A stretch of DNA of 64,000 nt from an uncultured Veillonellaceae bacterium (lineage in GTDB: Bacteria > Bacillota > Negativicutes > JARBTT01): contig CAWDTA010000002.1 of assembly GCA_963805085.1 (NCBI GenBank), forward strand, positions 1,591,478 to 1,655,477. Direction: 5' to 3'. Below are positions 3,553-53,637 of this stretch, in pieces. Numbering within the stretch: the first letter of the stretch is position 1; every line of letters begins with the position of its first letter. Position numbers and translations under genes: made by a program. The notes beneath the pieces were generated by a model. The model did no database searches, was not told the DNA's origin, and worked only from the letters and a program-made list of their open reading frames with translations.

Positions 3553-4416
3553 TGTCACGGGGACGGGGTTACTGACAACGTTTTTGCTGTGAAATAAGAT
3601 CAACTGGGGGTGTAATGCATGGCGAGAAAGGCTAGAGAGAAAAGCGAAAGTGAAATTTATCATATAATTATGAGGGGAATAAACCGACAGACGATTTTTG
3701 AGGATGAAGAGGATTGTACCCAATTTCTTCAAACGCTCCAGAGATACAAAGAAAAAAGCGGATACCAAATTTATGCCTATTGTTTGATGGGAAATCATGT
3801 GCACCTGCTGTTGAAAATTGGACTAGAACCATTAGAACAAGTGATGCGGCGGCTATGTGGCAGCTATGTATATTGGTATAATAGTAAGTATCAGAGAGTA
3901 GGCAATCTATTTCAGGATCGATTTAAAAGCGAACCAGTAAAAGACGATGAATATTTTCAAATTGTGCAAAGATATATACATCAAAATCCAGTAAAAGCAG
4001 GGATGGTAAAACATGCGGAAGAATATAAATGGAGCAGCTTTTATGAATATGTAAATAAGGCAGATTTGGTAGATGTAAATTTCTCTCTTGGAATGATAAG
4101 CAATGATAGAGGAAAGGCAATACAGACTTTCATGCAATATACCAATGAAGTGAATGATCATGCATGTATAGATATAGATAACGAAACCAAACTGCGAATT
4201 ACAGACGAAGAAGCAAGGGCTATAATAAAAACAGAATGTAGAGTAAAGAACGTAAAAGATTTACAGAATCTTGATGCAATAACAAGAAATGAATACTTAA
4301 GAAAGCTAAAAAGTAAATATAACTTATCAATTCGACAAATTGAAAGAATTACGGGTATTAACAGAGGTATTGTTTTAAAAGCATGAAGCGATGTCAATAA
4401 CCCCGTCCCCTTGACA
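3553..4416 (+). mobile_element. Y1 (IS200-like / REP-associated-type) transposase unit bounded by 25-nt inverted repeats
   Basis: Left TGTCACGGGGACGGGGTTACTGACA (3553-3577). Right TGTCAATAACCCCGTCCCCTTGACA (4392-4416), whose reverse complement matches the left repeat at 23/25 positions. Confidence 0.6.
3619..4386 (+). CDS. IS200-like Y1 transposase-domain protein with C-terminal HTH region
   Basis: 255 aa. N-terminal YHIIMRGINRQ..IYAYCLMGNHVHLLL (HuH motif) and ..YIHQNPVKAGMV..YKWSS (Tyr region), typical of Y1_Tnp/RayT-like proteins. C-terminal ...LSIRQIERITGINRGIV is HTH-like. Confidence 0.75.
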   Translation: MARKAREKSESEIYHIIMRGINRQTIFEDEEDCTQFLQTLQRYKEKSGYQIYAYCLMGNHVHLLLKIGLEPLEQVMRRLCGSYVYWYNSKYQRVGNLFQDRFKSEPVKDDEYFQIVQRYIHQNPVKAGMVKHAEEYKWSSFYEYVNKADLVDVNFSLGMISNDRGKAIQTFMQYTNEVNDHACIDIDNETKLRITDEEARAIIKTECRVKNVKDLQNLDAITRNEYLRKLKSKYNLSIRQIERITGINRGIVLKA

Positions 4417-4839: not shown

Positions 4840-5395
4840 CTCATAGGGGGACAGTAACCTGTCGTGCGCCACGAAAGCGAAGATGCTTAAGCATCTCTAT
4901 GCTTAACTAGAGATGGAGGAAGGCCCTCCGAAGTCGCCATACAGGTGGAGACTTCAAACCACCGTAAGCTGCTGCGGTCAAAAGCCGTGGTGGTGAGCGT
5001 TACGGGAAAAGGCGAAACAAGATTTCGTTAGGTAAGTGCCAATGGAGACGAACAAAATTGAACCGCTGTAGAAGTATCGAAACTTGCAAATGTCGTCAAA
5101 ACCGGGTTCTGACAGGTAGTCCGGGATGAATCTGGAGGAAACCTGATTACTGTCCAGATGGCGTCCGGTATAGAGGCGGCGTGAACGTGGCACAGGCTTT
5201 AGTTAGGAACGTGGGAACCTACGACCCTGATGATAAAGGAAAAGTCTCAAGCGGAGAACCCGCAAGGACGAAAGTACAGATGCAGGGTATAGGGGCGGAA
5301 CAGTCTGTAGTAGTGATGAAAATCCGTAATGGGAATGGAGCAAAGGGACTGTGTTATCTAGTTTTGAACACTGGTCAACCAAAAGGGAGGAGCCT

Positions 5396-6644
5396 ATGAA
5401 CAAAACAAAACCGTTTGAAATTTCCAAGAAAGTAGTAATAAAAGCATACGAACAAATAAAAGCGAATAAGGGAACAGCGGGAATTGATGGTGTATCTGTA
5501 GAAAAATTCGAAAAAAAACATGAAAAATAACTTGTATAAACTGTGGAATCGAATGTCATCAGGATGTTACTTTCCTTCTCCTGTCAAAGCGGTAGAAATA
5601 CCGAAGAAAAGTGGAGGGAAAAGAACACTTGGCATACCAACGGTAACCGACCGAATCGCTCAGATGGTAGTCAAACTATACTTTGAACCAGAAGTAGAAC
5701 CATATTTTAGTCAAGATTCCTATGGTTATAGACCTGGAAAGTCAGCAATAGACGCAATTGATATAACTAGGAGAAGATGTTGGAAATATGATTGGGTATT
5801 AGAGTTCGACATTAAAGCATTGTTTGATAACATAGACCATGAGCTACTTATGCGTGCGGTAACTCAGCATACGGATAATCAGTGGATTATTCTGTATATT
5901 ACCAGATGGTTAAGTAGTCCATTTCAAACATCCGAAGGCAAAACCATAGAGCGAACAGCCGGCACACCACAAGGTGGAGTAATCAGTCCAGTACTAGCAA
6001 ATCTATTTTTGCACTATGCATTTGACAAATGGATGGAAAGGAGCAATCCCCAGAATCCGTGGGCGAGATATGCAGATGATGGGATAATCCACTGTAAAAC
6101 TAAAGAAGAAGCAGAAAAACTACTCATAGGATTAAAGGGAAGATTTGCAGAATGCAAATTAGAGCTGCATCCAGATAAAACGAGAATTGTTTACTGTAAA
6201 GATGAAAAGCGTACAGGTGACCATCAACATATACAATTTGATTTCTTAGGATACACTTTCCGCCCAAGAAGCTCACAGAGCAAGAACGGTGAGCGATTTC
6301 TCAATTTCCTACCAGCAGTAAGCAATAAAGCTGTAAAAGCAATGGGGCAAACCATAAGACAATGGAAAATCCATCGGATGACAGAAAAGGAACTGGTGGA
6401 TATAGCCCAGATGGTCAATCCTGTAGTTAGAGGTTGGATAAACTATTACGGCTGTTTTTACAAATCAGCAATGAATGTAATATTACACAAACTAAATTGG
6501 ACACTGATTAGATGGATGGTAAAGAAGTATAAGAGACTAAAATCTAGCAAAAGACGTGCCCGAAACAAGCTAAGGGAAATGGCACAGAGCAAGCAGAAAT
6601 TATTTGTTCATTGGCGAATGGAAATTATTCCAACGGTTAGATGA
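5396..6644 (+). pseudogene. group II intron reverse transcriptase/maturase, split by a +1 frameshift in an A8 run
   Basis: A 44-codon ORF (MNKTKPFEISKK...GIDGVSVEKFEKKHEK*) in frame 2 continues in frame 0 as MKNNLYKLWNRMSSG.... The run G-A8-C lies at 5510-5519; removing one A gives a continuous protein of about 415 aa. RT motifs include YADDGIIHC, and an X/maturase-like C-terminus follows. Confidence 0.8.
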
Positions 6645-6647
6645 TGG

Positions 6648-6718
6648 GAGCCGGATGAATTGAGAGGTTCAAGTCCGGTTCTGAGAGAGCCTGAGGGTGA
6701 AACTCCCTCGGGCTACTT
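6648..6718 (+). ncRNA. group II intron domains V and VI
   Basis: DV is GAGCCGGAUGAAUUGAGAGGUUCAAGUCCGGUUC, with the AGC triad, a GAGA (GNRA) tetraloop and a 2-nt AA bulge. DVI stem 6685-6697/6705-6718 has an unpaired A at 6715. Confidence 0.85.
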
Positions 6719-6960
6719 GCCCCTGTGTCCCATTGAAATCCCGACAATTTTATTTGATAAAGCAATGAAGAATATAATAAAAAATCTTGTACCAATACGG
6801 CCAAATAGAAGTCTTCTCGAAGAGAGACTTCAAGAAAAAATAAATATCCAGTTAACAAGAAATGCTGTCAAAGAGGATTATAACCTTTCTTTGGCTTCTT
6901 TAAAGTTTTCAAGGGTGAAAACTTTATGCTTGCATTTTGTCCAAAAATGGTATATATTTG

Positions 6961-7000: not shown

Positions 7001-7630
7001 ATGGATGGATTTTCTTATAAGGTCAGCGTCAAGAAAGTGCTAATTTAATACTTTGCTGTATTTTGGATGAAGGTAGCTCTTTAGAGCTGGTTTGTAGGAG
7101 CAGATTTCAACTGCTTCAGTCCGAAAGGTTGCGGTGGTGAATGTTATGGAAAAATACGGGATATATTTCGACATGTATGGCTTAGAGAGACGAACGAAAG
7201 TAAACCATTTTATTTGTAGAAAAATGTAAAGCTTATTCGCAAAATAAAGTGAAAATTGACAGAGAAATATAATGTAAATAATAAAAATATAATTATTATT
7301 ATAAAATATTTGGAAAACAAGAAAGAATGGCTGTATGTGGCACTTTGGCCTGTCTGGAACTAGTACTGTAACCACCCATTTCTTATTTGAGGGTTCTTTA
7401 TTTCTAAAGGAAGCAGAAAAATTTTGTTTCGTGATACAGAAAATGAAAAGGAACAGGCTGAAAAAAGGTAGAGAGTGCCAATACCTCGTCCCCCTGCCAC
7501 GTCGAATTGGCAGGATAGTGTTTTTGACGTATCTGTAAGAGCATTATGGTGTTTGTTGGGTTGCGTTAACTACACTTATACTTTTAGGATTTATTTTTGA
7601 CATTCTAAGTAGATTGGCAAAATAAATTAA

Positions 7631-7644
7631 TTTGTCGCGACAAA
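7631..7644. promoter_or_regulatory. perfect 14-bp palindrome in the lasso precursor leader (candidate operator or 5'-UTR hairpin)
   Basis: TTTGTCGCGACAAA lies 42 nt upstream of the precursor ATG. A TTGACA hexamer sits at 7597-7602. Confidence 0.35.
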
Positions 7645-7686
7645 AAATTAAGGTTAAATTTTAACTGAAAGAAGGGAGGGTGCAGA

Positions 7687-7794
7687 ATGAAAAAGTATCA
7701 AGCTCCTAAAGTTATAGTGCTTGGCAATGTCCTTGAGTTGACACTGGGCTGGGGAATGTATGGTAAAAAGGATATGACAAACTGGTATTATTAA
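7687..7794 (+). CDS. lasso peptide precursor (35 aa): leader MKKYQAPKVIVLGNVLELTL, core GWGMYGKKDMTNWYY
   Basis: Not in the ORF track. GAAGGGAGGG RBS 6 nt upstream of the ATG. The leader fits YxxPx(L/V)x3Gx5Tx, with Thr at -2. The core starts with Gly and its only acidic residue is Asp9. Bulky W13/Y14/Y15 follow. The gene sits directly upstream of the cyclase. Confidence 0.85.
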   Translation: MKKYQAPKVIVLGNVLELTLGWGMYGKKDMTNWYY

Positions 7795-7800
7795 GCAATA

Positions 7801-7835
7801 AAATATCGCCATGGGACATTCCCATGGCGATATTT
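7801..7835 (+). terminator. attenuator-type hairpin between the precursor and cyclase genes
   Basis: Perfect 15-bp stem AAATATCGCCATGGG / CCCATGGCGATATTT with a 5-nt loop, followed by TATAA. It lies 7 nt after the precursor stop and 21 nt before the cyclase ATG. Confidence 0.7.
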
Positions 7836-7855
7836 TATAATGCAGGAGGTCTTTT

Positions 7856-9697
7856 ATGCGTAATTTTTGTGGGTTATTGCCTAAAATTGATACAAGAAAT
7901 GCTCCTGATATTGAATTTTATGGAAAAAACATGGGAGATATAATTAGGCCTTTATGGGTAGAACCGCCTTATAGAGAGCAATCATTTTTAAGGATAAAAG
8001 AAAAACCGTATGAATGTATTTTGATTGGTAATTTTTTTGCAAAAAAAGAGGAAATTAAGACAATTTTTTATAAGTGTATTAAGAATTCAAATTATACTGA
8101 ATTGATTACTTTGCCAGGTAATTATAATTTGATCGTTCATGAAAATGAAAATACGTTAATTTTTTCAGATATAACTGGTCTCAAGCCTGTGTTTTTTACT
8201 GATTATAATAATCAGTTTATTGCATATTCGTCATCTAGTCTTATATTACAACAGTTAATAAATGCAGAGATAAATACTGACTGGATTTCCAAATTTTTGA
8301 TTTGCCCTGGAATACAGGAATTGTTACAAGACCAATCTCCATTTCAAAATATAAAATGTATATTACCAGGACATTTTCTTTTCTTTTCTCCTAACAAAAC
8401 CCAATATTTTCCTTATTGGATTCCACCGCCTGGAGAAAAGAATATTACTGATGTTTCTAATAAATTAAAAACGCATCTTTTAATGGGCATAAATAATCGA
8501 GTCTCGATGTATGGGGAAAATATGTCGGCTGATTTAAGTGGAGGTTTAGATTCTACAAGTTTATCCGTATTGGCCGCGAAAATGATGGATAAAAAGGGAC
8601 AAACCTTGAATACGATTACATATGGAAGTACTTCTGAAAGAGAAGATACTATTTATGCCCAAAAAGTTGCTTCAAAATTTGCAAATATTAATTCTAATAT
8701 TTTAGGAGTACATGAATTTCCTTCAGCTTTTAGTAATTTAGAAATTCCTTTAACAGACGAACCACTCATAAACGCAACTACATTCGGAAACTTTTACTAT
8801 GGTTTTAATTTTATTAAAGCAATGAACTCGGAACTTCATCTTAGTGGTGAAGGTGCAGATGCGGTTCTTTTATCTCCATATTCTTATTTGGCTGATTTGA
8901 TTTTAAAGAGAAAAATAAAAACACTTTTTAGCCATATCAATGGATGGGCAAAAGTAAAAAACATTTCGCAAGGATTTTTAATCAAAAGCGCATTCATGCT
9001 TAGTATAACTAAATACCAACATTGGGCTAAAAAACAATCTATAAATCTGCAAAGAAATCAAAACAAACAAAATATTTTTGAATTGGGTTGGTTTCAAGCC
9101 CCCCAAAAAGCTAGCTGGCATACTGATGAAGCAGTGAGAGTTATTGTTTCTTTGTTAAAAACACATTCGATAACAGGTATTCCGTTTTCTGAAAAGCCGG
9201 GACAACATGAAGCTTATTCTAATATTTTGGCTATTGGTCGTACGTCAAGAGTGCTTCAACAGGTAGCAGGAGCATATGACGTTAATTTAGATTTTCCATA
9301 TTTAGATGCCATGATTGTTGATACTTGTTTACAAGCAAAGACAGAAGACCGCAATAATCCATTTCTTTTTAAACCATTGCTCTATCATTCTTTAAAATCC
9401 GATATTCCAGAGTTTATTTTATCGAGAACAACTAAAGGAGATTATACCGATGACTTATATAAAGGAATTCAAAAAAATCTCAATACTGTTATTAATTTGT
9501 TCCAAGAGTCGTACCTGCATAATTTAGGATTAATTTGTTCGAATACTTTAATAGAAGCGGCTAAAACATTTAATATGGGATTGGATGTTGGACTTTGTCA
9601 ATTTTGCAATACAGTAGCAGCAGAATTATGGATAAGAAATATTAAATCTAATCAACAACAGTATTGGAGGAAAAAATATGTTGCCAACAAAACTTAA
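7856..9697 (+). CDS. lasso peptide cyclase (asparagine synthetase-like macrolactam synthetase, C protein)
   Basis: 613 aa with the PP-loop motif SADLSGGLDSTS. GCAGGAGG RBS. Position in the cluster fits. Confidence 0.8.
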   Translation: MRNFCGLLPKIDTRNAPDIEFYGKNMGDIIRPLWVEPPYREQSFLRIKEKPYECILIGNFFAKKEEIKTIFYKCIKNSNYTELITLPGNYNLIVHENENTLIFSDITGLKPVFFTDYNNQFIAYSSSSLILQQLINAEINTDWISKFLICPGIQELLQDQSPFQNIKCILPGHFLFFSPNKTQYFPYWIPPPGEKNITDVSNKLKTHLLMGINNRVSMYGENMSADLSGGLDSTSLSVLAAKMMDKKGQTLNTITYGSTSEREDTIYAQKVASKFANINSNILGVHEFPSAFSNLEIPLTDEPLINATTFGNFYYGFNFIKAMNSELHLSGEGADAVLLSPYSYLADLILKRKIKTLFSHINGWAKVKNISQGFLIKSAFMLSITKYQHWAKKQSINLQRNQNKQNIFELGWFQAPQKASWHTDEAVRVIVSLLKTHSITGIPFSEKPGQHEAYSNILAIGRTSRVLQQVAGAYDVNLDFPYLDAMIVDTCLQAKTEDRNNPFLFKPLLYHSLKSDIPEFILSRTTKGDYTDDLYKGIQKNLNTVINLFQESYLHNLGLICSNTLIEAAKTFNMGLDVGLCQFCNTVAAELWIRNIKSNQQQYWRKKYVANKT

Positions 9698-11450
9698 AAC
9701 AGTTTTGTATACATTGAAATTAGCTTGGGATACTAACCGCGTTATGGCGTTTTTTTTAGTAGCATTACTGTTTATACAAGCAATTATGGGCGTTGCTGTT
9801 TTATGGACAATGGGACGCATAATCAACGAAATTGTCGCAAATCAATTCAGTTTAATAACTATAGCTATGCTTGTATCAACATTAGCAATGACTTTAATTT
9901 TTCCTACAGTTTTTCAAATAGCTCAGAGCATTTTTATGGATAAAGCTAGTATACATGTTGGTTATCGTTTTTTGCAATCAATTCTTTCGATGGTTACGAT
10001 AGAAGAATTAGAAAAACCAAAATTTTTTCAACAAGTCACAAATGTTCGTCAGCGACTACAAAGAGATCTGGCTGGAGTAATTATATTTGTTTCTTATGGG
10101 GCGCAAAACCTTTTAATGGGGACAGTGTTGCTAATTGTTCTCGGAATGTATTCCTGGCCATTAGTTTTTTTTCTTTTATTTACACTTATTCCTCGTGCAC
10201 AAATAGAATTGGAATTTGTTTCTATGACAGATGAAACACTTGAAATGAACGACCCAGAAGCACGACGTCTTAGCGCAATAAGAAATAGTATGTTAAGCCG
10301 TGATACGGTAATGGATGCATTGATACATAATATTGCAGATTTATTAACGAAAACTTATGAAAATTTGTTTGATGATGTATCCAAAAAAATTAATCGAGAA
10401 CGAAATCGTATACTGAACAATGTTTTATGGCGAACTCTGATTTTTGTTGCAGGTCCTACTATTTCAATTGCTTGGATTATTACACAGAAAGATATTAATG
10501 CCGGTAATGTTTTTTTATATATTAGTGCTATTTTGGCAATGGGAATGTCAATCTTAAATGGGTTTTATAATGTAGGCGTAGCCATGCGTATTTCTTCTTT
10601 TGCGAATGAAATTAAAGCAACATTAGATATGGACATTAAAAAGAAAGCTAAAGCTATTCCAGTAGATTCGAATGAATTTTCCGTTCAAATTCAGGATTTG
10701 TGGTTTAGATATAATACTGATACAGAACCGCTGTTACAAGGAATAAACCTGACAATAAACCACGGTGAATGTATTGCGCTAGTTGGTGAAAATGGGGCTG
10801 GAAAAACAACATTAATAAAATTGATTTCGGGATTATATTATCCAGATAAAGGAAATATAAAGATTAATAATTCTTTACTAATACCAGATAATATACCCTC
10901 CTTTCGTAACGAAATGGCGGTTTTAACTCAGGATTATCTTCGCTTTGCTGGCACTGTGGCGGAAAATATAACTTTTGGTCTATGTCGAGATGAAGAAAAG
11001 CTAATCTCTGTATTAAAAGATGTTGGACTATATTCGTTTGTTGAACAGTTACCCAATAAATTAGATACTTCTTTATCAGGCTCATTTGGAGGAACAGAAT
11101 TATCAGGAGGTCAGTGGCAAAAAATTGCCTTAGCTCGTGTTCTGTATCGTTCACCTAAATGCTTAATTCTTGATGAACCATTAGCGTCTTTAGATGTAGA
11201 ATCAGAAGTGGAGTTTTATCAGGCAATTCGCCGTTGGAGTAAAGGGCGTACTGTTATTATTGTGTCTCATCGATTAGCAGTTAACCAATTTGTAGATCGA
11301 ATTTTGTTTTTAAAAGACGGAAAAATTGTTCAAGACGGAACACATACTAACCTAATGCAAGAACAAGGATATTATTCTGAACTTTACATAAAGCAACTTT
11401 ATAATCTTGGTTTGCTAGAAAAGGAGGGAAGAATTAAGGATGAAATATAA
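9678..11450 (+). CDS. ABC transporter permease/ATPase half-transporter (lasso D-type exporter, subunit 1)
   Basis: 590 aa. N-terminal multi-TM region. Walker A GENGAGKTT, signature LSGGQWQK, Walker B LILDEP. Overlaps the cyclase gene by 20 nt. Confidence 0.85.
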   Translation: MLPTKLKTVLYTLKLAWDTNRVMAFFLVALLFIQAIMGVAVLWTMGRIINEIVANQFSLITIAMLVSTLAMTLIFPTVFQIAQSIFMDKASIHVGYRFLQSILSMVTIEELEKPKFFQQVTNVRQRLQRDLAGVIIFVSYGAQNLLMGTVLLIVLGMYSWPLVFFLLFTLIPRAQIELEFVSMTDETLEMNDPEARRLSAIRNSMLSRDTVMDALIHNIADLLTKTYENLFDDVSKKINRERNRILNNVLWRTLIFVAGPTISIAWIITQKDINAGNVFLYISAILAMGMSILNGFYNVGVAMRISSFANEIKATLDMDIKKKAKAIPVDSNEFSVQIQDLWFRYNTDTEPLLQGINLTINHGECIALVGENGAGKTTLIKLISGLYYPDKGNIKINNSLLIPDNIPSFRNEMAVLTQDYLRFAGTVAENITFGLCRDEEKLISVLKDVGLYSFVEQLPNKLDTSLSGSFGGTELSGGQWQKIALARVLYRSPKCLILDEPLASLDVESEVEFYQAIRRWSKGRTVIIVSHRLAVNQFVDRILFLKDGKIVQDGTHTNLMQEQGYYSELYIKQLYNLGLLEKEGRIKDEI

Positions 11451-13224
11451 ATTTGCCGAAAGAATTACTGCAATTAAAAACTGGGTAAGCAGTTTTTTAA
11501 TCAATCTTAAACTTGCGTTTAATGTTGATCTAAAAAGTACTTTAATTTTAATTTTTTCTGCTTTTATTACCGGCATTGCACCAGTTGTCTTAGCTATTAC
11601 AACTGGAATGGTGGTTGGACAATTTATTCCTGGGTCTGCAGCTTCCATAGGTAAAATAATTATAATATATACTGTAACTTACAGTATGCTACAATTTGGT
11701 CATATAGGAGTGGTGTCTCAACGTGGGCGACTGGCGGAAAGAATTACGAGAACTATGAGTGAGCAAATTATGAAATTGCCGCCAAAATGGATAGGAGTAG
11801 AACATTTCGAGAATAAAGAAATATACGATAAAATAGCAACAGTTGATAATTTAATTGGGAGTATGGCATCAGTTTTTTTTGTACAAGCAATAACTTCGGC
11901 AATAACATGTCTTGGCACATTTGTTCTTCTATGGGTAATAGATTGGCGTATAGCGATATTATCATCAATAGTTATAATACCTCTAGCTGTTTGGCAAGCA
12001 AAAGAGTCAAGAAAATCGCAAATTGATATCCAGATGTTGTCTCCTAATTATAGACGAATCAATTATCTACTTGAACTATCAACAGAAATAAAGACAGCAA
12101 AAGAAATAAAATTATTAAATGCTGAAAAATTTATTCTTGATAATTATCAAAAGCACAGCGAATCAATTCTGAAAGAACTTTTGTATATACGATTAAAAGA
12201 AGGCATAAAGTCAATATCAGGTACGATTATTTGCGGATTATCTTTAGGCGTGATATGTGGACTTATAGTGTTTTGGTCAATTGATAGTCAATTGGATCCT
12301 GTTAAATTAGCGATTTTTTTTGTTGCAATTAAAGAGGGACAACAAGCAGTGGGGCAAGTATATTCATTTATGTGGGCATTTTCCACTTTAACGTTATTTT
12401 TCTCTACGATGATAGAAATGCAAAAATTTGAGGGATTGCCACAAGGAACACAAAATATAACAGAAATAGAGTCCTTGGCAACTAATAATATAAGTTTTAC
12501 ATATCAAGGAAGAAATCGGGCAGCACTTTCCGAAATTAATATTAGTATTAATCGAGGAGAAATTTTAGTTATTGTTGGTGAAAATGGCGCGGGGAAAAGC
12601 TCTTTAATTAAACTTCTTACTCGTATGTATGATCCGAAAGAAGGAACACTCAATATTAATGGTAATGATTTGAAACAATTTGATACTACCAGCTATAGAA
12701 ATTTACTGGGTGTTTCTTTGCAAGATGTGGGCAGATTTCCGTTAACTCTGAAAGAAAATATTTTCTTCGATAAAAATGATTGTACGGAAAACGTGAAAGA
12801 AGTATTCAAAAAAATAGATATGGAGACTTATCTTGCAAAACTGCCTAAAGGTGGAGATGAATTGGTAGGGCGGCAATGGGGTGGTATTGAGATGTCAGGA
12901 GGTCAATGGCAAAAAATAGGATCTGCGCGGGTGTTTGCTAGACCTAATACAGATTTACTGATTATGGATGAGCCAAATACATTTTTGGATGCACATGCTG
13001 AGGCGGCTTTGCTTGATAATATAGTAAAATATATCCGAAATAATAATCTGAGCTGCATTTTCATTACTCATCGTTTAGGTGCAGCACGAATAGGTGATCG
13101 TATTCTCGTTATGCATGACGGAAAGATTGTTGAGTCTGGAACACACGCGGAGCTAATAAAAAATCAAGGGAAATATTCAAAATTATGGAGTATACAGAAA
13201 GAACAGTATCAGTTAGTTGATTAA
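11440..13224 (+). CDS. ABC transporter permease/ATPase half-transporter (subunit 2)
   Basis: 594 aa. TM region, Walker A GENGAGKSS, signature MSGGQWQK, Walker B LLIMDEP. Overlaps the upstream ABC gene by 11 nt. Confidence 0.85.
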   Translation: MKYKFAERITAIKNWVSSFLINLKLAFNVDLKSTLILIFSAFITGIAPVVLAITTGMVVGQFIPGSAASIGKIIIIYTVTYSMLQFGHIGVVSQRGRLAERITRTMSEQIMKLPPKWIGVEHFENKEIYDKIATVDNLIGSMASVFFVQAITSAITCLGTFVLLWVIDWRIAILSSIVIIPLAVWQAKESRKSQIDIQMLSPNYRRINYLLELSTEIKTAKEIKLLNAEKFILDNYQKHSESILKELLYIRLKEGIKSISGTIICGLSLGVICGLIVFWSIDSQLDPVKLAIFFVAIKEGQQAVGQVYSFMWAFSTLTLFFSTMIEMQKFEGLPQGTQNITEIESLATNNISFTYQGRNRAALSEINISINRGEILVIVGENGAGKSSLIKLLTRMYDPKEGTLNINGNDLKQFDTTSYRNLLGVSLQDVGRFPLTLKENIFFDKNDCTENVKEVFKKIDMETYLAKLPKGGDELVGRQWGGIEMSGGQWQKIGSARVFARPNTDLLIMDEPNTFLDAHAEAALLDNIVKYIRNNNLSCIFITHRLGAARIGDRILVMHDGKIVESGTHAELIKNQGKYSKLWSIQKEQYQLVD

Positions 13225-13260
13225 ATAAGCGTTTTCATTAAAAATGCGGGAGGAATATTG

Positions 13261-13527
13261 ATGAAAAACCTTCGTATGCCAGAACATGTAAAAATCAGCT
13301 CTTTTGAAGGAAAGGCTATTTTGTTAGATTCGCGTAACAATATGTATTATTGTTTGAACGAAAGTGCGTTAGAGTTTTTGGATATTTTTAGTAATGTTCA
13401 ATCTTTTGAACAGGCCGTGGAAGATTTTGTGAAAAAATATGAAGGTGTATCTATTGAGCAAATAAAACAGGATATGCGAGATTTATTTACAGAATTAATA
13501 AATGCTGGGTTGCTTGAACATTTCTAA
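13261..13527 (+). CDS. PqqD-family leader-recognition protein (lasso B1 / RRE)
   Basis: About 88 aa. ..AILLDSRNNMYYCLNESALEFLD.. resembles PqqD/RRE proteins. GCGGGAGGA RBS before ATG 13261. Confidence 0.7.
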   Translation: MKNLRMPEHVKISSFEGKAILLDSRNNMYYCLNESALEFLDIFSNVQSFEQAVEDFVKKYEGVSIEQIKQDMRDLFTELINAGLLEHF

Positions 13528-13551
13528 ACTTTATGGAAGGAGAATATAATA

Positions 13552-13974
13552 ATGACTAAGCAAATGGCTTGGAATTCATTAGATTTAGATTTAAATTTAT
13601 TAGAATATATTCAAGGATTATTCTCTATAATATTAGCTTATATTCTATTACATGGCTTTTCGTTAGAAAAACTAAGAAAATTATTATTAACTGTAACAAA
13701 AAAAAGAATGAAGGAAGAATACAGTTTTGATGAAGCTATTAGAGTATGGCTGGCTATTAGAAAATCTCAAAAATTTTTGTTACTAAGAGTAGCTTGTATG
13801 GAACAATCATTAGCATTTGTTATTTTTTCTATTTTAAAAAGAAAACGTGTTTTATGGTGCATTGGAGCCAAATTAAATCCGTTTGAAGCACATGCATGGA
13901 TTGAAATAGAAGGAGAGCCTTTTCAAGAACCGGATTATTCAAAACGACAGTTTCAAAAATTATTTGTTACTTGA
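13552..13974 (+). CDS. lasso peptide leader peptidase (B2, transglutaminase-like Cys protease)
   Basis: 140 aa. ACMEQSLAF (candidate Cys), FEAHAWIE (His) and a downstream Asp, in the order expected for a lasso B2 catalytic triad. GGAAGGAG RBS. Confidence 0.75.
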   Translation: MTKQMAWNSLDLDLNLLEYIQGLFSIILAYILLHGFSLEKLRKLLLTVTKKRMKEEYSFDEAIRVWLAIRKSQKFLLLRVACMEQSLAFVIFSILKRKRVLWCIGAKLNPFEAHAWIEIEGEPFQEPDYSKRQFQKLFVT

Positions 13975-14206
13975 AGATAATAAATTAACCCACAATAAAA
14001 AAACAATCACACTAAAGTGCGTGTTGTCTTTTGAATTGACACAAAACGCGTTGTTAGTAGGCTTTGAGACAATCTAAAAGACACATCATAGATCCGAGGT
14101 GATAAAATGTGATTGGCAAAAGGTTATTGAGTCGGGATAAGAAAAATAAGTAAGGAGATTTCATAGTATTTATGTACTAAAGTTGCTATTGAAAGGGATT
14201 GCCTAT

Positions 14207-14953
14207 ATGATAGATAAATCTGGATTTGTATCTGAATTATTGATTAATATAAGAAGAGAAAATATAAATCAATATCCTTATAATCTTGATGTTTTAAAAA
14301 ATTTGAATAAGTTGGTTTTAAATGAAAAAGTAACATTTTTAGTTGGAGAAAATGGAACGGGGAAATCAACGCTAATTGAAGCTATTGCGATTGCCTATGG
14401 ATTTAATCCGGAAGGTGGTTCTATAAATTTTAATTTTTCAACTAGATTTTCTTCATCTCAACTTTACAAAAACATAAGGATTAGAAAAACATTAAATCAT
14501 CCTAAAGATGGATATTTTTTAAGAGCAGAAAGCTTTTACAATGTTGCAACAAATATTGAAGAAATGGATGATATTCCATCAGGAACAAAAAAAATTATTG
14601 AATCATATGGTGGTAAATCGCTGCATGAACAATCACATGGTGAATCATTTTTTTCCCTTTTTTTAAATAGATTTAGAGAAAATGGCTTTTATATTTTAGA
14701 TGAACCAGAAGCCGCTCTTTCGGTAGAAAGACAATTGACATTTGTTTCACGATTACATGAACTAGTCGAAAACAATTCCCAGTTTGTTATTGCTACTCAT
14801 TCACCGATTATATTATCCTATCCCAATTCAACAATATATGAAATTGGGCAAGATGGTCTCAACATAGTAACTTACGAAGATACAGAACAATATAAATTTA
14901 TGAAGTTATTTATTAATAATTATCCTAATATTCTAAAGAAAGTAATGGATTGA
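14207..14953 (+). CDS. stand-alone ABC/SMC-like AAA ATPase (COG3910-like)
   Basis: Walker A GENGTGKST, Q-loop/signature-like HEQSHGES, Walker B FYILDEPEAALS, ATHSP switch. The start is uncertain (ATG 14207 versus TTG 14183). Confidence 0.7.
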   Translation: MIDKSGFVSELLINIRRENINQYPYNLDVLKNLNKLVLNEKVTFLVGENGTGKSTLIEAIAIAYGFNPEGGSINFNFSTRFSSSQLYKNIRIRKTLNHPKDGYFLRAESFYNVATNIEEMDDIPSGTKKIIESYGGKSLHEQSHGESFFSLFLNRFRENGFYILDEPEAALSVERQLTFVSRLHELVENNSQFVIATHSPIILSYPNSTIYEIGQDGLNIVTYEDTEQYKFMKLFINNYPNILKKVMD

Positions 14954-15869: not shown

Positions 15870-16110
15870 ATCTGAAAAGCGATGATTAGGAAGAGTATTC
15901 ATGCTAGGTAGTGGACAGAGAGTGGGGATGGTTGAGAACCTGCGACGATTGGTATGAGGAAAATCACCTGAGAGCTGATGGCTGAAAGTGGAGTAAGTCA
16001 ATTCGTATTCCTGCGTTAAAGGATAAGGTATGTTAGTACCTGAATGCATGATTAGGTGGTATAACGAGGTAGAAGCTTCGTCCTGAAAAGGGCGAAGCTT
16101 TTTGTGTTTT
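15870..16110 (+). promoter_or_regulatory. T-box leader (Ile specifier) controlling ileS
   Basis: AGAGAG box and GGUUGAGAACC distal element. AUC followed by A at 15963-15966 in GAAAAUCACC. T-box core UUAGGUGGUAUAACGAGG. Terminator GAAGCUUCGUCC..GGGCGAAGCUU plus U-tract (16072-16104). Confidence 0.8.
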
Positions 16111-16147
16111 ATTGAGCATAATAAATAGAAGAAAAGGAGTTTTAAAC

Positions 16148-19100
16148 GTGTATAAAAAAGTGGATTCCAAAACCAATTTTGTGAATATGGAAAAATCTGT
16201 TCTTGCGTTATGGGAAGAAAAAGACATTATAAACAAAAACTTTCAGATGAATGAGGAGGGTGAATATTTTACCTTCTACGATGGCCCGCCAACAGCGAAT
16301 GGTGTACCGCATATTGGTCATGTCGTTACTCGGGTTATTAAGGATCTTATCCCGCGTTATAAAGTAATGAAGGGTTATAAGGTTTTACGTAAGGCAGGTT
16401 GGGACACGCATGGCCTCCCAGTTGAACTTGAGGTGGAGAAAAATCTTGGTATATCCGGCAAGCCGCAAATCGAAGAGTATGGTGTGGAAAAATTTATAAA
16501 GAAGTGTAAAGATAGCGTATTTACCTATGCAACTCAGTGGAAAGATATGTCCGAACGAGTGGGTTACTGGATTGATATGGAGAAGCCTTATGTTACCTAT
16601 GAAAATGAATATATTGAATCGGTATGGTGGTCTTTGAAACAACTTTGGGATAAAGAATTGCTATACAAAGGACATAAAATTGTTCCGTATTGCCCACGAT
16701 GTGGGACAGCGCTGTCTTCACATGAAGTTGCCCAAGGCTATAAGGATGTTAAGGATAGCTCTGCTTATGTGAAATTTAAACTGAAGGGTAAAAATGTTTC
16801 TATTTTGGTTTGGACGACAACCCCTTGGACGTTGCCAAGTAATGTAGCGCTTGCTGTTAATCGCAAATATGATTATGTGGAAATCATCAATCAGGAAGAG
16901 CATTTAATCCTTGCCAAAGCATTACTTAACCAAATTGAAGGTGAATATGAGGTAGTTCGAGAGTTTAAAGGAGAAGAGCTTCTTGATCATGAATATGAGC
17001 CTATATTCTCTTTTGTTACGCCTGAGAAAAAAGCTTACTACGTTGTGCATGGAGATTTCGTAACGCTCAGTGATGGTACGGGGATCGTTCATATTGCACC
17101 TGCTTACGGTGAAGATGATAATCGGCTTGGACAAAAATATGATCTGCCTTTGGTAAATCTAGTGGATGTTCAGGGAAACTTTGTAGAAGAAGTTACGCCT
17201 TGGCAGGGGATGTTTGTGAAAAAAGCAGATGAAAAAATCATTGTAACGATGAAGAACAATGGTGCTCTCTATAAAACAGAAAAGTATCTTCATTCCTATC
17301 CTTTCTGCTGGCGCTGTGATACACCGCTTTTATATTATCCAAGAGATTCGTGGTTCGTAAAGATGTCCTCATTACGCGATAATCTCTTGAAAAATAATGA
17401 TAAAATCAACTGGTATCCTGACAATATCAAGAACGGACGTTTTGGTAATTTCTTAGAAAATGTGATTGATTGGGGACTAAGTCGGGAACGTTATTGGGGT
17501 ACGCCTCTACCAATATGGGAATGCGAATGCGGGCATAGGGAGTGCATTGGCAGCATTGCAGAATTACGAGAAAAGGGAATCCAGGTGCCAGAGGGTCTCG
17601 AACTGCATAAACCTTATATTGATGCTGTAGCATTGCAATGTCCTCATTGTGCAAAAGAAATGAAAAGAGTAAGTGAGGTTATTGATTGTTGGTACGATTC
17701 TGGTTCAATGCCGTTTGCTCAATACCATTTTCCTTTTGAGAATAAAGAATTGTTTGAACAAAATTTTCCTGCCCAATTTATATCGGAAGCAGTCGATCAG
17801 ACGAGAGGTTGGTTTTACACACTTCTCGCTATATCTACGGCTATATTTGACAAGAGTTCTTTTGAAAACTGTATCGTTCTGGGACATGTGCTAGATAAAA
17901 ACGGCATTAAAATGTCAAAACATAAAGGAAACGTTTTAAGTCCATTTACAGTCTTGGAAAATGAAGGGGCCGATGCTTTGCGGTGGTATTTTTATACCGC
18001 CAGTGCGCCTTGGCTTCCATCAAGATTTTATGAAGATGCAGTAATTGACGTTCAACGTAAATTTTTGAATACCTTATGGAATGTATATTCTTTCTATGTC
18101 CTGTATGCTGAGATTGACCAGTTTGATCCGACGAAGTATCAAGAGAGAGAAAGCCAGCATGTCATGGATAAGTGGATTATATCTAAGCTTAATACGATGA
18201 TCCATAAAGTCGATGAAAATTTGGATGCGTATAATATCACTGGAGCAGCAGAACTTATCCAAGAGTTTACTGAGGAATTGTCAAACTGGTATGTGCGGAG
18301 AAATAGAACTAGATATTGGGTTATGGATATGACAGAGGATAAGATTGATGCTTATCTTACCTTGCATACTGTGTTAAAGAATCTAGTCATCGTGGCAGCG
18401 CCTTTTGTACCATTTATCACGGAAGAAATTTATCAAAATCTGGTCGTACGCCTAAATGCGGCGGAACCGGAGAGCGTTCATTTGTGCAGATGGCCTGTTT
18501 ATGATGAAAAACTCGTTGATCGGCAGTTGGAAACTGAGATGGAGTTGACTTACCAAATCTGTGGTCTTGGCCGGAGTGCAAGAAATGTGGCCAATATTAA
18601 AAACAGACAACCTCTTTCGAAGATGCTGCTCAGTACGAAGAACTTACCTGACTATTATATCGACATCATCAAAGAAGAATTGAATATAAAGAGCGTAGAA
18701 GTCAACGCCAACATGGCTGATTATGTAAGTTATACCGTAAAACCAAATTCGCCAGTGTTAGGGAAAACCCATGGTAAGTTTATACCTAGCATTAGAAAAG
18801 CGATTGCAGAGATGGATCAAATGGCATTAGCGTTGAAAATTTTAAATGGTGAGACACTTACCGTAGAAATTGATGATACTGCCATCGAATTTAACGCTAA
18901 AAATTTGTTGATCTCAATGAATGGTCTAGAGGGCTTTGCTTTCGCTGGCGAAGGTGAAGTTGGCGTTGTGCTTGATACCCATATCTCTGAAAGCTTGAGA
19001 GTTGAAGGGTATGCGCGCGAAATCATCAGCAAAATCCAAACGATGAGAAAAGATAGTTCTTTTGAGGTAATGGACAAGATTACAATCTATATGACAGGGA

Positions 19101-19249
19101 ATAGCCTTCTTCAAGGCGTTGTCAATCAATATAAGGACTATATCATGAGCGAAACTTTAGCAGTGCAGATTATATTTGATGAAGCAAGAGAGTATACCGA
19201 TGTAATAATTAACGGTGAACAATTGAAGTTGGCTGTTGCAAGACAATAG
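16148..19249 (+). CDS. ileS: isoleucine--tRNA ligase (long, type 2-like form)
   Basis: HIGH motif (PHIGH), KMSKS motif (KMSKHKGN), CP1 editing region, Zn-type CxxC pairs. GTG 16148 is preceded by AAAGGAG; the ORF-track start at 16112 sits just downstream of the T-box terminator (within its trailing T-rich region) with no RBS. Confidence 0.95.
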
Positions 19250-27422: not shown

Positions 27423-28445
<1,023 letters not shown>

Positions 28446-53240: not shown

Positions 53241-53637
53241 AATTCTCCCCCTTCTCTTGTTAATCAATCAATAGAAAAGATATTTCATAGTATTTACATA
53301 GAATTCAAAAATAATCTTTCGCTAAATCTATTTAAAGCCCAAAATGATCACCAAGGTACAATAATCATACAAAATATTAGCTAGGGCGTTGTTTTTTTTT
53401 TAAGAAATGATATAATTTTCTAAAAGATATAGGTTGGCGCCTCGAATATATGCTGGGAGGTATCAGTGGTAGCATTGTCGCAATCTAGATGTGGAATTTT
53501 GAACTATGATCATATCCAGTTATTCTTTATTACCCGGATGATACTTGCTTTAAAGGAATGGTGATAGTATAGAGATGATGATGAATCGAAAAATCGTAGA
53601 TGAGCCTAAAAAAGCAATAAAGAGGCTGGAGGCTTCA

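What the first reader, a model, noticed from the sequence alone, without database searches (positions are those of the whole stretch)
7687..7794. Unannotated precursor with textbook leader motif; core GWGMYGKKDMTNWYY forces a Gly1-Asp9 ring
The ORF is too short for the supplied ORF track. It has a strong RBS (GAAGGGAGGG) and a leader, MKKYQAPKVIVLGNVLELTL, that fits the RRE-recognition pattern YxxPxLx3Gx5Tx (Y4, P7, V9 in place of L, G13, T19 at position -2). Cleavage after Leu20 exposes Gly1. Asp9 is the only acidic residue in the 15-aa core, so only a 9-membered macrolactam is possible. That leaves a 6-residue loop/tail (MTNWYY) whose W13/Y14/Y15 are candidate steric plugs. Fifteen residues is at the short end of known lasso peptides (sungsanpin/chaxapeptin size), and those have 8-membered rings. 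A 9-residue ring with such a short tail would be topologically tight. The two Lys residues inside the ring make the peptide cationic.
Basis: partly seen in the sequence, partly recalled or inferred. Interest (0 to 1): 0.85.

Follow-up and report, generated by a model that had tools for sequence, protein, structure and literature searches.

The report
Lasso peptide precursor in Sporomusaceae island
The 35-codon ORF is a genuine precursor gene for a small knotted "lasso" peptide and sits at the head of a complete, textbook lasso gene cluster, but its 15-residue, 9-residue-ring design already has a solved precedent (lihuanodin), so it is a new member of a known kind and not a new topology.

Summary
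Observation confirmed. Window 7687-7794 (+) encodes MKKYQAPKVIVLGNVLELTL|GWGMYGKKDMTNWYY, with a strong ribosome-binding site. It lies 61 nt upstream of a complete lasso operon: cyclase C, two ABC half-transporters, RRE B1 and protease B2.

- **Family support.** The leader passes NCBIfam lasso_leader_L3 and aligns with precursors of every related cluster examined.
- **Conservation.** A sister contig carries GFGMFGNKDMTNWYY, keeping Gly1, Asp9 and the tail. dN/dS is 0.17 for the ORF and 0.09-0.23 for the other genes.
- **Nearest clusters.** The closest cyclases (42-45% identity) are cyanobacterial. Their cores are also 15 aa, with Gly1, Asp9 and an aromatic C-terminus.
- **Ring.** A Gly1-Asp9 ring is therefore well supported, though only by inference.

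The novelty claims are overstated:
- The ORF is already on record as a called protein in NCBI, ENA and Logan.
- A 15-aa lasso with a 9-aa ring, 4-aa loop and 2-aa tail is solved and heat-stable (lihuanodin, PDB 7LCW).
- Net charge after cyclisation is only +1, and 0 in the variant.

Modest points of interest:
- The cluster is a 7.5-kb low-GC island in an uncultured Sporomusaceae-like (Negativicutes) genome.
- It resembles the aspartimidylated "lassimiditide" scaffold but lacks the methyltransferase and the DT motif.
- It carries a two-gene exporter.

Verdict: new member of a known kind.

The parts
7479..7686 (+). Conserved upstream region of the island (candidate promoter and 5' UTR). It contains TTGACA at 7597-7602 and a perfect 14-bp palindrome, TTTGTCGCGACAAA, at 7631-7644.
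   Evidence: Homology with the sister contig L081 starts at window 7479, and this stretch is almost invariant. No Rfam family matches it. The promoter and operator roles are inference only; the consensus scan did not list a promoter here.
7671..7680 (+). Ribosome-binding site GAAGGGAGGG, 6 nt before the ATG.
   Evidence: Read directly from the sequence. Identical in L081, L082 and L083.
7687..7794 (+). Lasso precursor gene A. Leader 7687-7746 (MKKYQAPKVIVLGNVLELTL), core 7747-7791 (GWGMYGKKDMTNWYY), stop 7792-7794.
   Evidence: Sequence and family hit (NF033521, 19.5 bits against cutoff 19). Variant. dN/dS 0.17. Aligned with related precursors.
7800..7836 (+). Perfect 17-bp hairpin with a 3-nt loop between A and C, followed by T/A-rich sequence. 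Probably a partial terminator or RNA-stabilising stem that sets the ratio of precursor to enzymes.
   Evidence: Fold energy -31.7 kcal/mol, z = -6.7, 0 of 200 shuffles as stable. In L081 the only change is in the loop. The simple terminator scan did not list it. The function is inferred.
7856..9697 (+). Lasso cyclase C, an asparagine-synthetase-like macrolactam synthetase of 613 aa.
   Evidence: Pfam Asn_synthase 2.6e-19. NCBIfam NF033561 macrolactam cyclase, 287 bits, 2.2e-85, just under the cutoff of 300. The ATP-binding motif D226-L-S-G-G-x-D-S-T is invariant across 32 homologs.
9678..11450 (+). ABC exporter half-transporter D1 (590 aa). It overlaps C by 20 nt.
   Evidence: Pfam ABC_tran 3.3e-33. 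Full-length matches to MsbA/HlyB-type exporters.
11440..13224 (+). ABC exporter half-transporter D2 (594 aa). It overlaps D1 by 11 nt.
   Evidence: Pfam ABC_membrane plus ABC_tran. 39% identical to D1 over the ATPase domain only, which suggests a heterodimer.
13258..13527 (+). B1, a PqqD-like RiPP recognition element. The true start is probably the ATG at 13261, giving 88 aa.
   Evidence: Pfam PqqD 1.6e-09. NCBIfam lasso PqqD chaperone models 9.6e-12, below their cutoffs. 36% identical to B1 of L162. The sister-contig gene is called at 88 aa.
13552..13974 (+). B2, the transglutaminase-like leader peptidase (140 aa).
   Evidence: Pfam Transglut_core3 6.8e-15. NCBIfam NF033537 lasso_biosyn_B2, 59.4 bits against cutoff 33. 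C82, H114 and E126 are invariant in 7 homologs.
14183..14953 (+). AAA_15/AAA_21-type ATPase (249-256 aa), the last gene of the shared island. Whether it has a role in the pathway is unknown.
   Evidence: Pfam hits. Present next to B2 in L081. The shared block ends at window 14950.

Best explanation
The ORF is the precursor gene (A) of a class II lasso peptide, made by a split-B pathway (A-C-D1-D2-B1-B2).

**Proposed mechanism; every step is inferred**
1. B1 (the PqqD-like RRE) binds the leader through Y-17/P-14/V-12.
2. B2 (the Cys protease) cuts after Thr(-2)-Leu(-1) and exposes Gly1.
3. C adenylates the Asp9 side chain and joins it to the Gly1 amine. This gives a 9-residue macrolactam around the pre-folded tail.
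4. The product is a 15-residue lasso, cyclo(G1-D9)-GWGMYGKKDMTNWYY, monoisotopic mass 1880.801 Da.
5. By positional analogy with lihuanodin (ring 9, loop 4, tail 2; locks Y13/R14/W15), the loop would be M10-W13. W13 would sit above the ring, with Y14 (and Y15) below it.
6. The translationally coupled D1/D2 pair exports the peptide and probably gives self-immunity. This points to an extracellular, most likely antibacterial, role with an unknown target.
7. The hairpin between A and C probably raises the amount of precursor transcript relative to enzyme transcript.

**Setting.** The cluster is a 7.5-kb horizontally acquired island in an uncultured spore-forming Sporomusaceae-like bacterium.

**Shown:** gene content, motifs, conservation and island boundaries. 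**Inferred:** cleavage site, ring, threading, plug residues, export and activity.
For: - **ORF and RBS:**
- **Precursor family hit:** NF033521 above its cutoff.
- **Enzymes:** C, B1, B2 and two ABC exporters by Pfam and NCBIfam. The PP-loop of C is invariant, as are Cys82/His114 of B2.
- **Operon structure:** genes overlap or lie 25-61 nt apart.
- **Sister contig:** L081 has the same seven genes at 94% DNA identity. All are under purifying selection, dN/dS 0.09-0.23. Its core, GFGMFGNKDMTNWYY, changes only ring positions 2, 5 and 7.
- **Leader alignment:** in 12 precursors, G-8, T-2 and L-1 are invariant, and Y-17, P-14 and L-9 nearly so.
- **Nearest clusters:** cyclases 42-45% identical, with 15-aa cores GYRFYDTADLTRYYY, GSFKSDTRDMRRFYW, GGGLADTRDQRRFYW and GGMRNDTRDLGSYYY. 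G1, D9 and aromatics at 13-15 are conserved.
- **Experimental precedent:** in the characterised DTAD family, D9 is the ring residue (D9N abolishes the lasso). A 9/4/2 15-mer is threaded and stable at 70 C. The unmodified 'lassoed only' form is itself a lasso (10.1101/2021.05.19.444711).
- **Island:** GC 32.1% against 39.5%, with unrelated flanks.
- **Host:** IleS is 80-81% identical to Anaerospora/Anaerosporomusa, and GerA is 68% identical to Pelosinus.
Against: - No product has been observed. Cleavage, cyclisation, threading and export all rest on homology.
- The cyclase scores just under the NF033561 cutoff (287 against 300). B1 is below the lasso-specific PqqD cutoffs.
- The precursor scores below the cutoff of the cyanobacterial lasso model NF033528 (19.4 against 33).
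- Cellulonodin-2, a relative of lihuanodin, unthreads at room temperature. Threading stability of short-tailed 9-rings is therefore sequence-dependent.
- The antimicrobial role rests only on the presence of exporters.
- The NJ tree placing the cyclase as sister to the cyanobacterial clade has no support values.
Confidence: 0.82

Rival explanations
1. The macrolactam forms, but the mature product is not a stable lasso. With only six residues after a 9-membered ring, and without the aspartimide of its relatives, the tail slips out. The natural product would then be a branched-cyclic lariat, or a thermally labile lasso.
For: Cellulonodin-2, a characterised relative with a 9-ring, unthreads at room temperature and faster at 70 C. 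Enlarging the lihuanodin ring by one atom (isoAsp) causes unthreading (PMC13001092). The remainder of 6 residues is only one above the empirical minimum of 5.
Against: Lihuanodin has the same 9/4/2 layout and stays threaded at 70 C. Its non-aspartimidylated form is a lasso, because the methyltransferase accepts only lassoed substrate. W13, Y14 and Y15 are as bulky as Y13, R14 and W15. The tail MTNWYY is invariant between the two natural variants, which suggests constraint on it.
Confidence: 0.12
2. The island is a recently transferred cluster that is silent or decaying, and no peptide is made in this host.
For: The composition is foreign (GC 32% against 39.5%). The flanks are unrelated in the two contigs, and mobile elements lie next to it (IS200-like transposase, group II intron). 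No expression data exist.
Against: All seven reading frames are intact in both copies. dN/dS is 0.09-0.23 at dS 0.13-0.36. The RBS, hairpin and upstream region are conserved.
Confidence: 0.05
3. The ORF belongs to another RRE-dependent RiPP class with a YxxP leader, for example the linear polyphosphorylated peptides of Bacillota, or it is a chance ORF.
For: Precursors of the linear polyphosphorylated peptides also carry YxxPxV in the leader, and their clusters co-occur with lasso clusters in Bacillota (PMC13381572).
Against: No kinase or signal-peptidase-like gene is present in the island; all its genes are accounted for. The rest of that leader consensus (LxHQxIxFETxxS) is absent. The ORF lies directly upstream of lasso C/B1/B2, and its homologs occupy precursor positions in related lasso clusters.
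Confidence: 0.01

Closest known systems
Lihuanodin, and its unmodified form pre-lihuanodin, from Lihuaxuella thermophila (Bacillota, Bacilli). NMR structure PDB 7LCW; Cao et al. 2021, bioRxiv 10.1101/2021.05.19.444711.
   Same: 15-aa core, Gly1-Asp9 isopeptide (9-membered ring), six residues after the ring (loop 4, tail 2), bulky residues at 13-15 as steric locks, split B1/B2, YxxP...T(-2) leader.
   Different: Lihuanodin has the DTAD motif at 6-9 and a PIMT-type methyltransferase that makes an aspartimide at D6. Its cluster has no ABC transporter. The window peptide has G6-K7-K8-D9, no methyltransferase anywhere in the 64 kb, and two exporter genes. I could not obtain the sequences of lihuanodin or LihC, so I could not measure identity.
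Uncharacterised cyanobacterial lassimiditide-type clusters, for example Tychonema sp. LEGE 06208 (locus L166) and metagenome loci L162, L163, L164 and L167.
   Same: These are the closest cyclases (42-45%), B2 (42-45%) and B1 (35-36%). They also have 15-aa cores with G1, D9, [ML]10 and aromatics at 13-15, and a near-identical leader segment, LGNVxExTL.
   Different: They carry a divergently transcribed PIMT homolog (three of four have the WxxxGxP motif) and D6-T7 in the core. They also have a 36-aa leader, gene order A-C-B1-B2-D and a single ABC gene. The window has a 20-aa leader and the order A-C-D1-D2-B1-B2.
Chaxapeptin / sungsanpin-type 15-aa actinobacterial lasso peptides
   Same: Same total length, class II, Gly1, aromatic C-terminus. 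The chaxapeptin core GFGSKPLDSFGLNFF was recovered by the same precursor scan in locus L013.
   Different: They have an 8-membered Gly1-Asp8 ring and seven residues after it. The cyclase is only about 25% identical and falls in a different clade of the NJ tree.
Paeninodin-like lasso peptides, the main Bacillota lasso group.
   Same: Bacillota host, split B1/B2, ABC exporter.
   Different: Paeninodin-type leaders have WxxP and the clusters encode a kinase (PMC13381572; PMC4289311). This leader is YxxP and no kinase is present.

Membership tests
Lasso peptide biosynthetic gene cluster (class II, split-B type) | Precursor leader with the RRE-binding motif [Y/W]xxPx[L/V/I/F/A] and Thr at position -2 | tested here: met
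   Y-17, P-14, V-12, G-8 and T-2 are read from the sequence. NF033521 scores 19.5 bits against cutoff 19. Aligned with 11 related precursors. Motif definition from PMC13381572.
Lasso peptide biosynthetic gene cluster (class II, split-B type) | Core whose residue 1 can be acylated, with Asp or Glu at position 7, 8 or 9 and at least 5 residues after it. No Cys for class II. | tested here: met
   Core GWGMYGKKDMTNWYY has G1, D9 as the sole acidic residue, six residues after it and no Cys. Length rule from PMC12214591.
Lasso peptide biosynthetic gene cluster (class II, split-B type) | Asparagine-synthetase-like cyclase (C) with an ATP pyrophosphatase loop | tested here: met
   Pfam Asn_synthase. 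NF033561 2.2e-85, but 287 bits against a cutoff of 300. The SGGxDS loop is invariant in 32 homologs.
Lasso peptide biosynthetic gene cluster (class II, split-B type) | PqqD-like RRE (B1) | tested here: met
   Pfam PqqD, 38.4 bits against cutoff 23.4. The lasso-specific NCBIfam PqqD models hit below their cutoffs.
Lasso peptide biosynthetic gene cluster (class II, split-B type) | Transglutaminase-like cysteine protease (B2) with catalytic Cys and His | tested here: met
   NF033537, 59.4 bits against cutoff 33. C82, H114 and E126 are invariant.
Lasso peptide biosynthetic gene cluster (class II, split-B type) | The product has an N-terminus-to-side-chain isopeptide bond and a threaded tail | not testable with these tools
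   This needs MS/MS, a carboxypeptidase or heat assay, and NMR.
Lassimiditides (aspartimidylated lasso peptides: cellulonodin-2, lihuanodin) | PIMT-homolog O-methyltransferase encoded in the cluster | tested here: not met
   tblastn with four cluster-associated PIMT homologs against the whole window gave a best E-value of 0.019, inside the cyclase gene. None is present in L081 either.
Lassimiditides (aspartimidylated lasso peptides: cellulonodin-2, lihuanodin) | D(T/S)AD motif at core positions 6-9, where D6 is the modified residue | tested here: not met
   Positions 6-9 are G-K-K-D (G-N-K-D in the variant). Motif definition.
Lassimiditides (aspartimidylated lasso peptides: cellulonodin-2, lihuanodin) | Gly1 and a ring-forming Asp9 | tested here: met
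   Met at the sequence level only.
NCBIfam NF033528 lasso_cyano (cyanobacterial lasso peptide subfamily) | Score at or above the curated cutoff of 33 bits | tested here: not met
   19.4 bits, E 7.7e-4.
Paeninodin-like Bacillota lasso peptides | WxxP leader and a cluster-encoded kinase | tested here: not met
   The leader is YQAP. No kinase domain occurs in any island gene.

The most novel reading that the evidence does not exclude
This would be the first lasso peptide from the Negativicutes. It would be a lihuanodin-type 9/4/2 mini-lasso that dispensed with, or never had, the ring aspartimide, and instead acquired a dedicated heterodimeric ABC exporter on a mobile 7.5-kb island related to cyanobacterial clusters. 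If so, it offers a natural 'aspartimide-free' comparator for asking what the aspartimide does in lassimiditides. It could also be an exported antibacterial with an unknown target in anaerobic communities. The co-transferred AAA ATPase could be an undescribed accessory or immunity component.
Probability: 0.3. Interest if true: 0.4.

Novelty: new member of a known kind. Interest (0 to 1): 0.3.

Why it matters
If expressed, the peptide would add a second, unmodified example of the smallest known 9-membered-ring lasso architecture (15 aa, ring 9, loop 4, tail 2). It would also be a naturally exported one.

- **Comparator for lassimiditides.** It gives a natural control for the still unknown role of the aspartimide, because the scaffold is the same but the DT motif and the methyltransferase are absent.
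- **New host group.** It would extend lasso peptides to the Negativicutes. A full-text search for 'lasso peptide' with 'Negativicutes' returned one paper with a single occurrence of each term, which I did not open.
- **Horizontal transfer.** It documents apparent movement of a compact RiPP island between very different lineages (cyanobacteria-like relatives and an anaerobic spore-former).

None of this changes current understanding of lasso biosynthesis.

Tried and rejected
- **phmmer of the 35-aa precursor against 1.84 billion representatives:** only itself at E <= 0.001. Precursor relatives had to be found through the cyclase instead.
- **Genome and metagenome scans with a cyclase profile:** no copy of the window's own genome, and nothing closer than 39%. 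The closest relatives (42-45%) came only from the protein search and contig look-ups.
- **L080 (Thermobifida cellulosilytica):** this might have been the cellulonodin-2 locus, but it has no PIMT homolog and the scans found no DT.D core there. It is probably another lasso cluster of that genome. I therefore had no LihC or TceC sequence and could not measure identity to the characterised enzymes.
- **L168:** no precursor was found on this short contig.
- **Rfam on the conserved 5' region and hairpin:** only chance-level hits.
- **Consensus promoter and terminator scan:** counts were no higher than in shuffles, and neither the candidate promoter nor the A-C hairpin was listed.
- **Literature search for the exact core and leader strings:** no paper.
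- **LassoPred table of ring/loop/tail values:** no supplement is held.
- **The solved-structure sequence search** holds only chains of 20 residues or more, so I could not use it for the 15-aa lihuanodin (7LCW).
- **Second precursor in the window:** none found.
- **Linear-polyphosphorylated-peptide reading of the YxxP leader:** rejected, because there is no kinase or signal-peptidase gene.

Full report
**1. The observation**

Window 7687-7794 (+) reads ATG...TAA and translates to MKKYQAPKVIVLGNVLELTLGWGMYGKKDMTNWYY. GAAGGGAGGG lies at 7671-7680, six bases before the ATG. The stop-to-stop segment (7669-7794) has no other in-frame start.

Counted from a cut after Leu20, the leader carries Tyr-17, Pro-14, Val-12, Gly-8 and Thr-2. 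Asp9 is the only acidic residue of the 15-residue core.

**2. Is it more than chance?**

- A strict leader-plus-core pattern occurs once in the window, at this ORF. Composition shuffles of the whole 64 kb give 0.11 matches on average. The real match lies 61 nt upstream of a lasso cyclase, on the same strand.
- NCBIfam's lasso leader model NF033521 scores 19.5 bits (cutoff 19). The cyanobacterial lasso model NF033528 scores 19.4 bits (cutoff 33).
- The identical 35-aa protein is already in the public protein collection from NCBI, ENA and Logan.

**3. Surroundings**

The ORF heads a compact operon:

| Gene | Coordinates | Evidence |
|---|---|---|
| C (cyclase) | 7856-9697 | Asn_synthase; NF033561 macrolactam cyclase 2.2e-85 |
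| D1 (ABC half-transporter) | 9678-11450 | ABC_tran; overlaps C by 20 nt |
| D2 (ABC half-transporter) | 11440-13224 | ABC_membrane + ABC_tran; overlaps D1 by 11 nt |
| B1 (RRE) | 13258-13527 | PqqD |
| B2 (leader peptidase) | 13552-13974 | Transglut_core3; NF033537 above cutoff |
| AAA-type ATPase | 14183-14953 | AAA_15/AAA_21 |

- The cyclase ATP-binding loop DLSGGxDST is invariant in 32 homologs.
- B2 keeps invariant Cys82, His114 and Glu126.
- Between A and C lies a perfect 17-bp hairpin (7800-7836), at -31.7 kcal/mol and z = -6.7.

**4. Comparative evidence**

*Sister copy.* A Logan contig (L081, with the partial copy L082) carries the same seven genes. It is 94% identical over window 7479-14950, and the flanks are unrelated.
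- Its precursor is MKKYQAPKVILLGNVLELTL|GFGMFGNKDMTNWYY.
- Gly1, Asp9 and the whole tail MTNWYY are kept. The core changes are W2F, Y5F and K7N.
- dN/dS is 0.17 for A and 0.09-0.23 for the other six genes, at dS 0.13-0.36. The cluster is therefore under purifying selection.

*Nearest other cyclases.* Nothing else in 5.8 billion protein clusters is closer than 45% to the cyclase. The closest hits (42-45%) are cyanobacterial: Tychonema sp. LEGE 06208, and metagenome contigs with phycobilisome genes.
- Their upstream small ORFs have the leader ...YK(A/S)PQLLxLGNVVExTL.
- Their 15-aa cores are GYRFYDTADLTRYYY, GSFKSDTRDMRRFYW, GGGLADTRDQRRFYW and GGMRNDTRDLGSYYY.
- All six distinct sequences of this group, including the window and L081, share length 15, Gly1, Asp9 and aromatic residues at 13-15.
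- An actinobacterial locus (L012, Promicromonospora) has GQGKNDTADMKKYYY.

*More distant relatives.* Nostocales cyclases at 35-39% identity have 19-30-aa cores with Gly, Ala, Trp or Leu at position 1 and Asp8 or Glu9. They have the same leader frame.

It was run and did not refute the reading.

**5. What the relatives are**

The cyanobacterial clusters carry a PCMT/PIMT-type methyltransferase next to the precursor. Three of four have the C-terminal WxxxGxP motif. Their cores have D6-T7-x-D9. This is the signature of the 'lassimiditides' described by Cao et al. (bioRxiv 10.1101/2021.05.19.444711; review PMC13001092):
- Gly1 and DTAD at positions 6-9.
- D9 forms the ring, and D9N abolishes the lasso.
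- D6 is converted to an aspartimide, and only on the already lassoed peptide.

Lihuanodin, from the firmicute Lihuaxuella thermophila, has a solved structure (PDB 7LCW). It has a 9-aa ring, 4-aa loop and 2-aa tail, with Y13 and R14 as steric locks and W15 as a possible second lower lock. It stays threaded at 70 C.

The window cluster has no such methyltransferase anywhere in 64 kb, and its core has G6-K7 in place of D6-T7. It therefore fails two defining features of the lassimiditides. It shares their scaffold and should behave like 'pre-lihuanodin'.

In an unsupported NJ tree, the window cyclase is sister to the whole cyanobacterial clade. Actinobacterial PIMT-associated cyclases lie further out. 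Whether the methyltransferase module was lost or never present is unresolved.

**6. Mechanism (inferred)**

1. B1 binds the leader. The [Y/W]xxPx[L/V/I/F/A] motif makes Val-12 a normal variant (PMC13381572).
2. B2 cuts after Thr(-2)-Leu(-1).
3. C adenylates Asp9 and closes the Gly1-Asp9 macrolactam around the tail.
4. By position, W13 and Y14 should straddle the ring, with Y15 as an extra lower lock.
5. D1 and D2 are only 39% identical, and only in the ATPase domain. They probably form a heterodimeric exporter and immunity pump. This suggests an extracellular, probably antibacterial, role, but the target is unknown.
6. The A-C hairpin probably acts as a leaky terminator or stabiliser that favours the precursor transcript.

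The predicted product mass is 1880.801 Da.

**7. Host and mobility**

- IleS is 97% identical to 'Firmicutes bacterium' metagenome-assembled genomes and 80-81% to Anaerospora and Anaerosporomusa.
- GerA is 68% identical to Pelosinus and 58% to Lucifera.
- Anaerospora and Pelosinus were checked in the taxonomy and are Sporomusaceae, Negativicutes.
- The island has 32.1% GC against 39.5% for the rest of the window.
- To its left are an IS200-like transposase ORF and a complete group II intron.
- Gene order differs from the cyanobacterial relatives: A-C-D1-D2-B1-B2 here, against M<-A-C-B1-B2-D there.

**8. Novelty**

- The exact sequences appear in no searchable paper.
It also respects the empirical minima of loop 3 and tail 2 (PMC12214591).
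- Several other predicted 15-16-aa cores with Asp9 turned up in the loci fetched here.
- This is a new member of a known kind. The modest points of interest are the Negativicutes host, the island-like transfer, the aspartimide-free version of a lassimiditide-like scaffold, and the added two-gene exporter.

**9. Limits**

- Nothing about the product was observed.
- The cyclase and B1 fall just under some curated NCBIfam cutoffs.
- I could not obtain the lihuanodin or LihC sequences.
- The tree has no support values.
- Host assignment rests on two proteins.

Noticed in passing
window 15873-16088 (+): T-box leader upstream of ileS (16112-19249). RF00230 scores 86.8 bits, E 2.2e-19, just under the gathering score of 93, so the default Rfam scan missed it.
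   Followed up: partly
window 4915-6721 (+): Complete group II intron immediately left of the lasso island. It comprises RF01999 D1-D4 (4915-5033), a reverse transcriptase/maturase ORF (5520-6644) and RF00029 (6646-6721). An IS200-like Y1 transposase ORF lies at 3619-4386.
   Followed up: partly
window 7479-14950: The lasso cluster plus an AAA ATPase form a discrete 7.5-kb block. It is 94% identical to Logan contig L081 (442-7913), the flanks are unrelated, and GC is 32.1% against 39.5% for the rest of the window. It looks like a horizontally moved island. I inspected the flanking sequence only by eye and made no systematic search for direct repeats or an integrase.
   Followed up: partly
window 7631-7644: Perfect 14-bp palindrome, TTTGTCGCGACAAA, between a TTGACA hexamer (7597-7602) and the precursor RBS. 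It is invariant in the sister contigs, and the whole 5' region is more conserved than the coding sequence. It is a candidate operator, but the island has no regulator gene.
   Followed up: no
window 14183-14953 (+): AAA_15/AAA_21-type ATPase of about 250 aa, co-transferred as the last gene of the island, with dN/dS 0.14. It is not a known lasso pathway component.
   Followed up: no
L162 1600-1755; L163 4852-5007; L166 5648-5803; L167 4079-4234: Cyanobacterial clusters (Tychonema and relatives) look like lassimiditide clusters. They have a PIMT homolog, mostly with WxxxGxP, and 15-aa cores with D6-T7-[AR]8-D9. The Cao et al. preprint text never mentions cyanobacteria, so this phylum may be an unreported home of that family.
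   Followed up: partly
L001 10426-10720 and 6207-6341; L002 10940-11305; L006 3015-3188; L088 543-722: Nostocales relatives carry two or three precursor copies with very Arg-rich 19-22-aa cores ending in R(I/Y/V)FF. One type has a long His/Gly-rich tail (GWRGWRRDHRHHRRRRRHGGGHGGHGGHGG).
   Followed up: no
window 27423-28442 (-) and 51597-53267 (-): A collagen-triple-helix repeat protein and a GerA-family germinant receptor. These fit an endospore-forming host.
   Followed up: no
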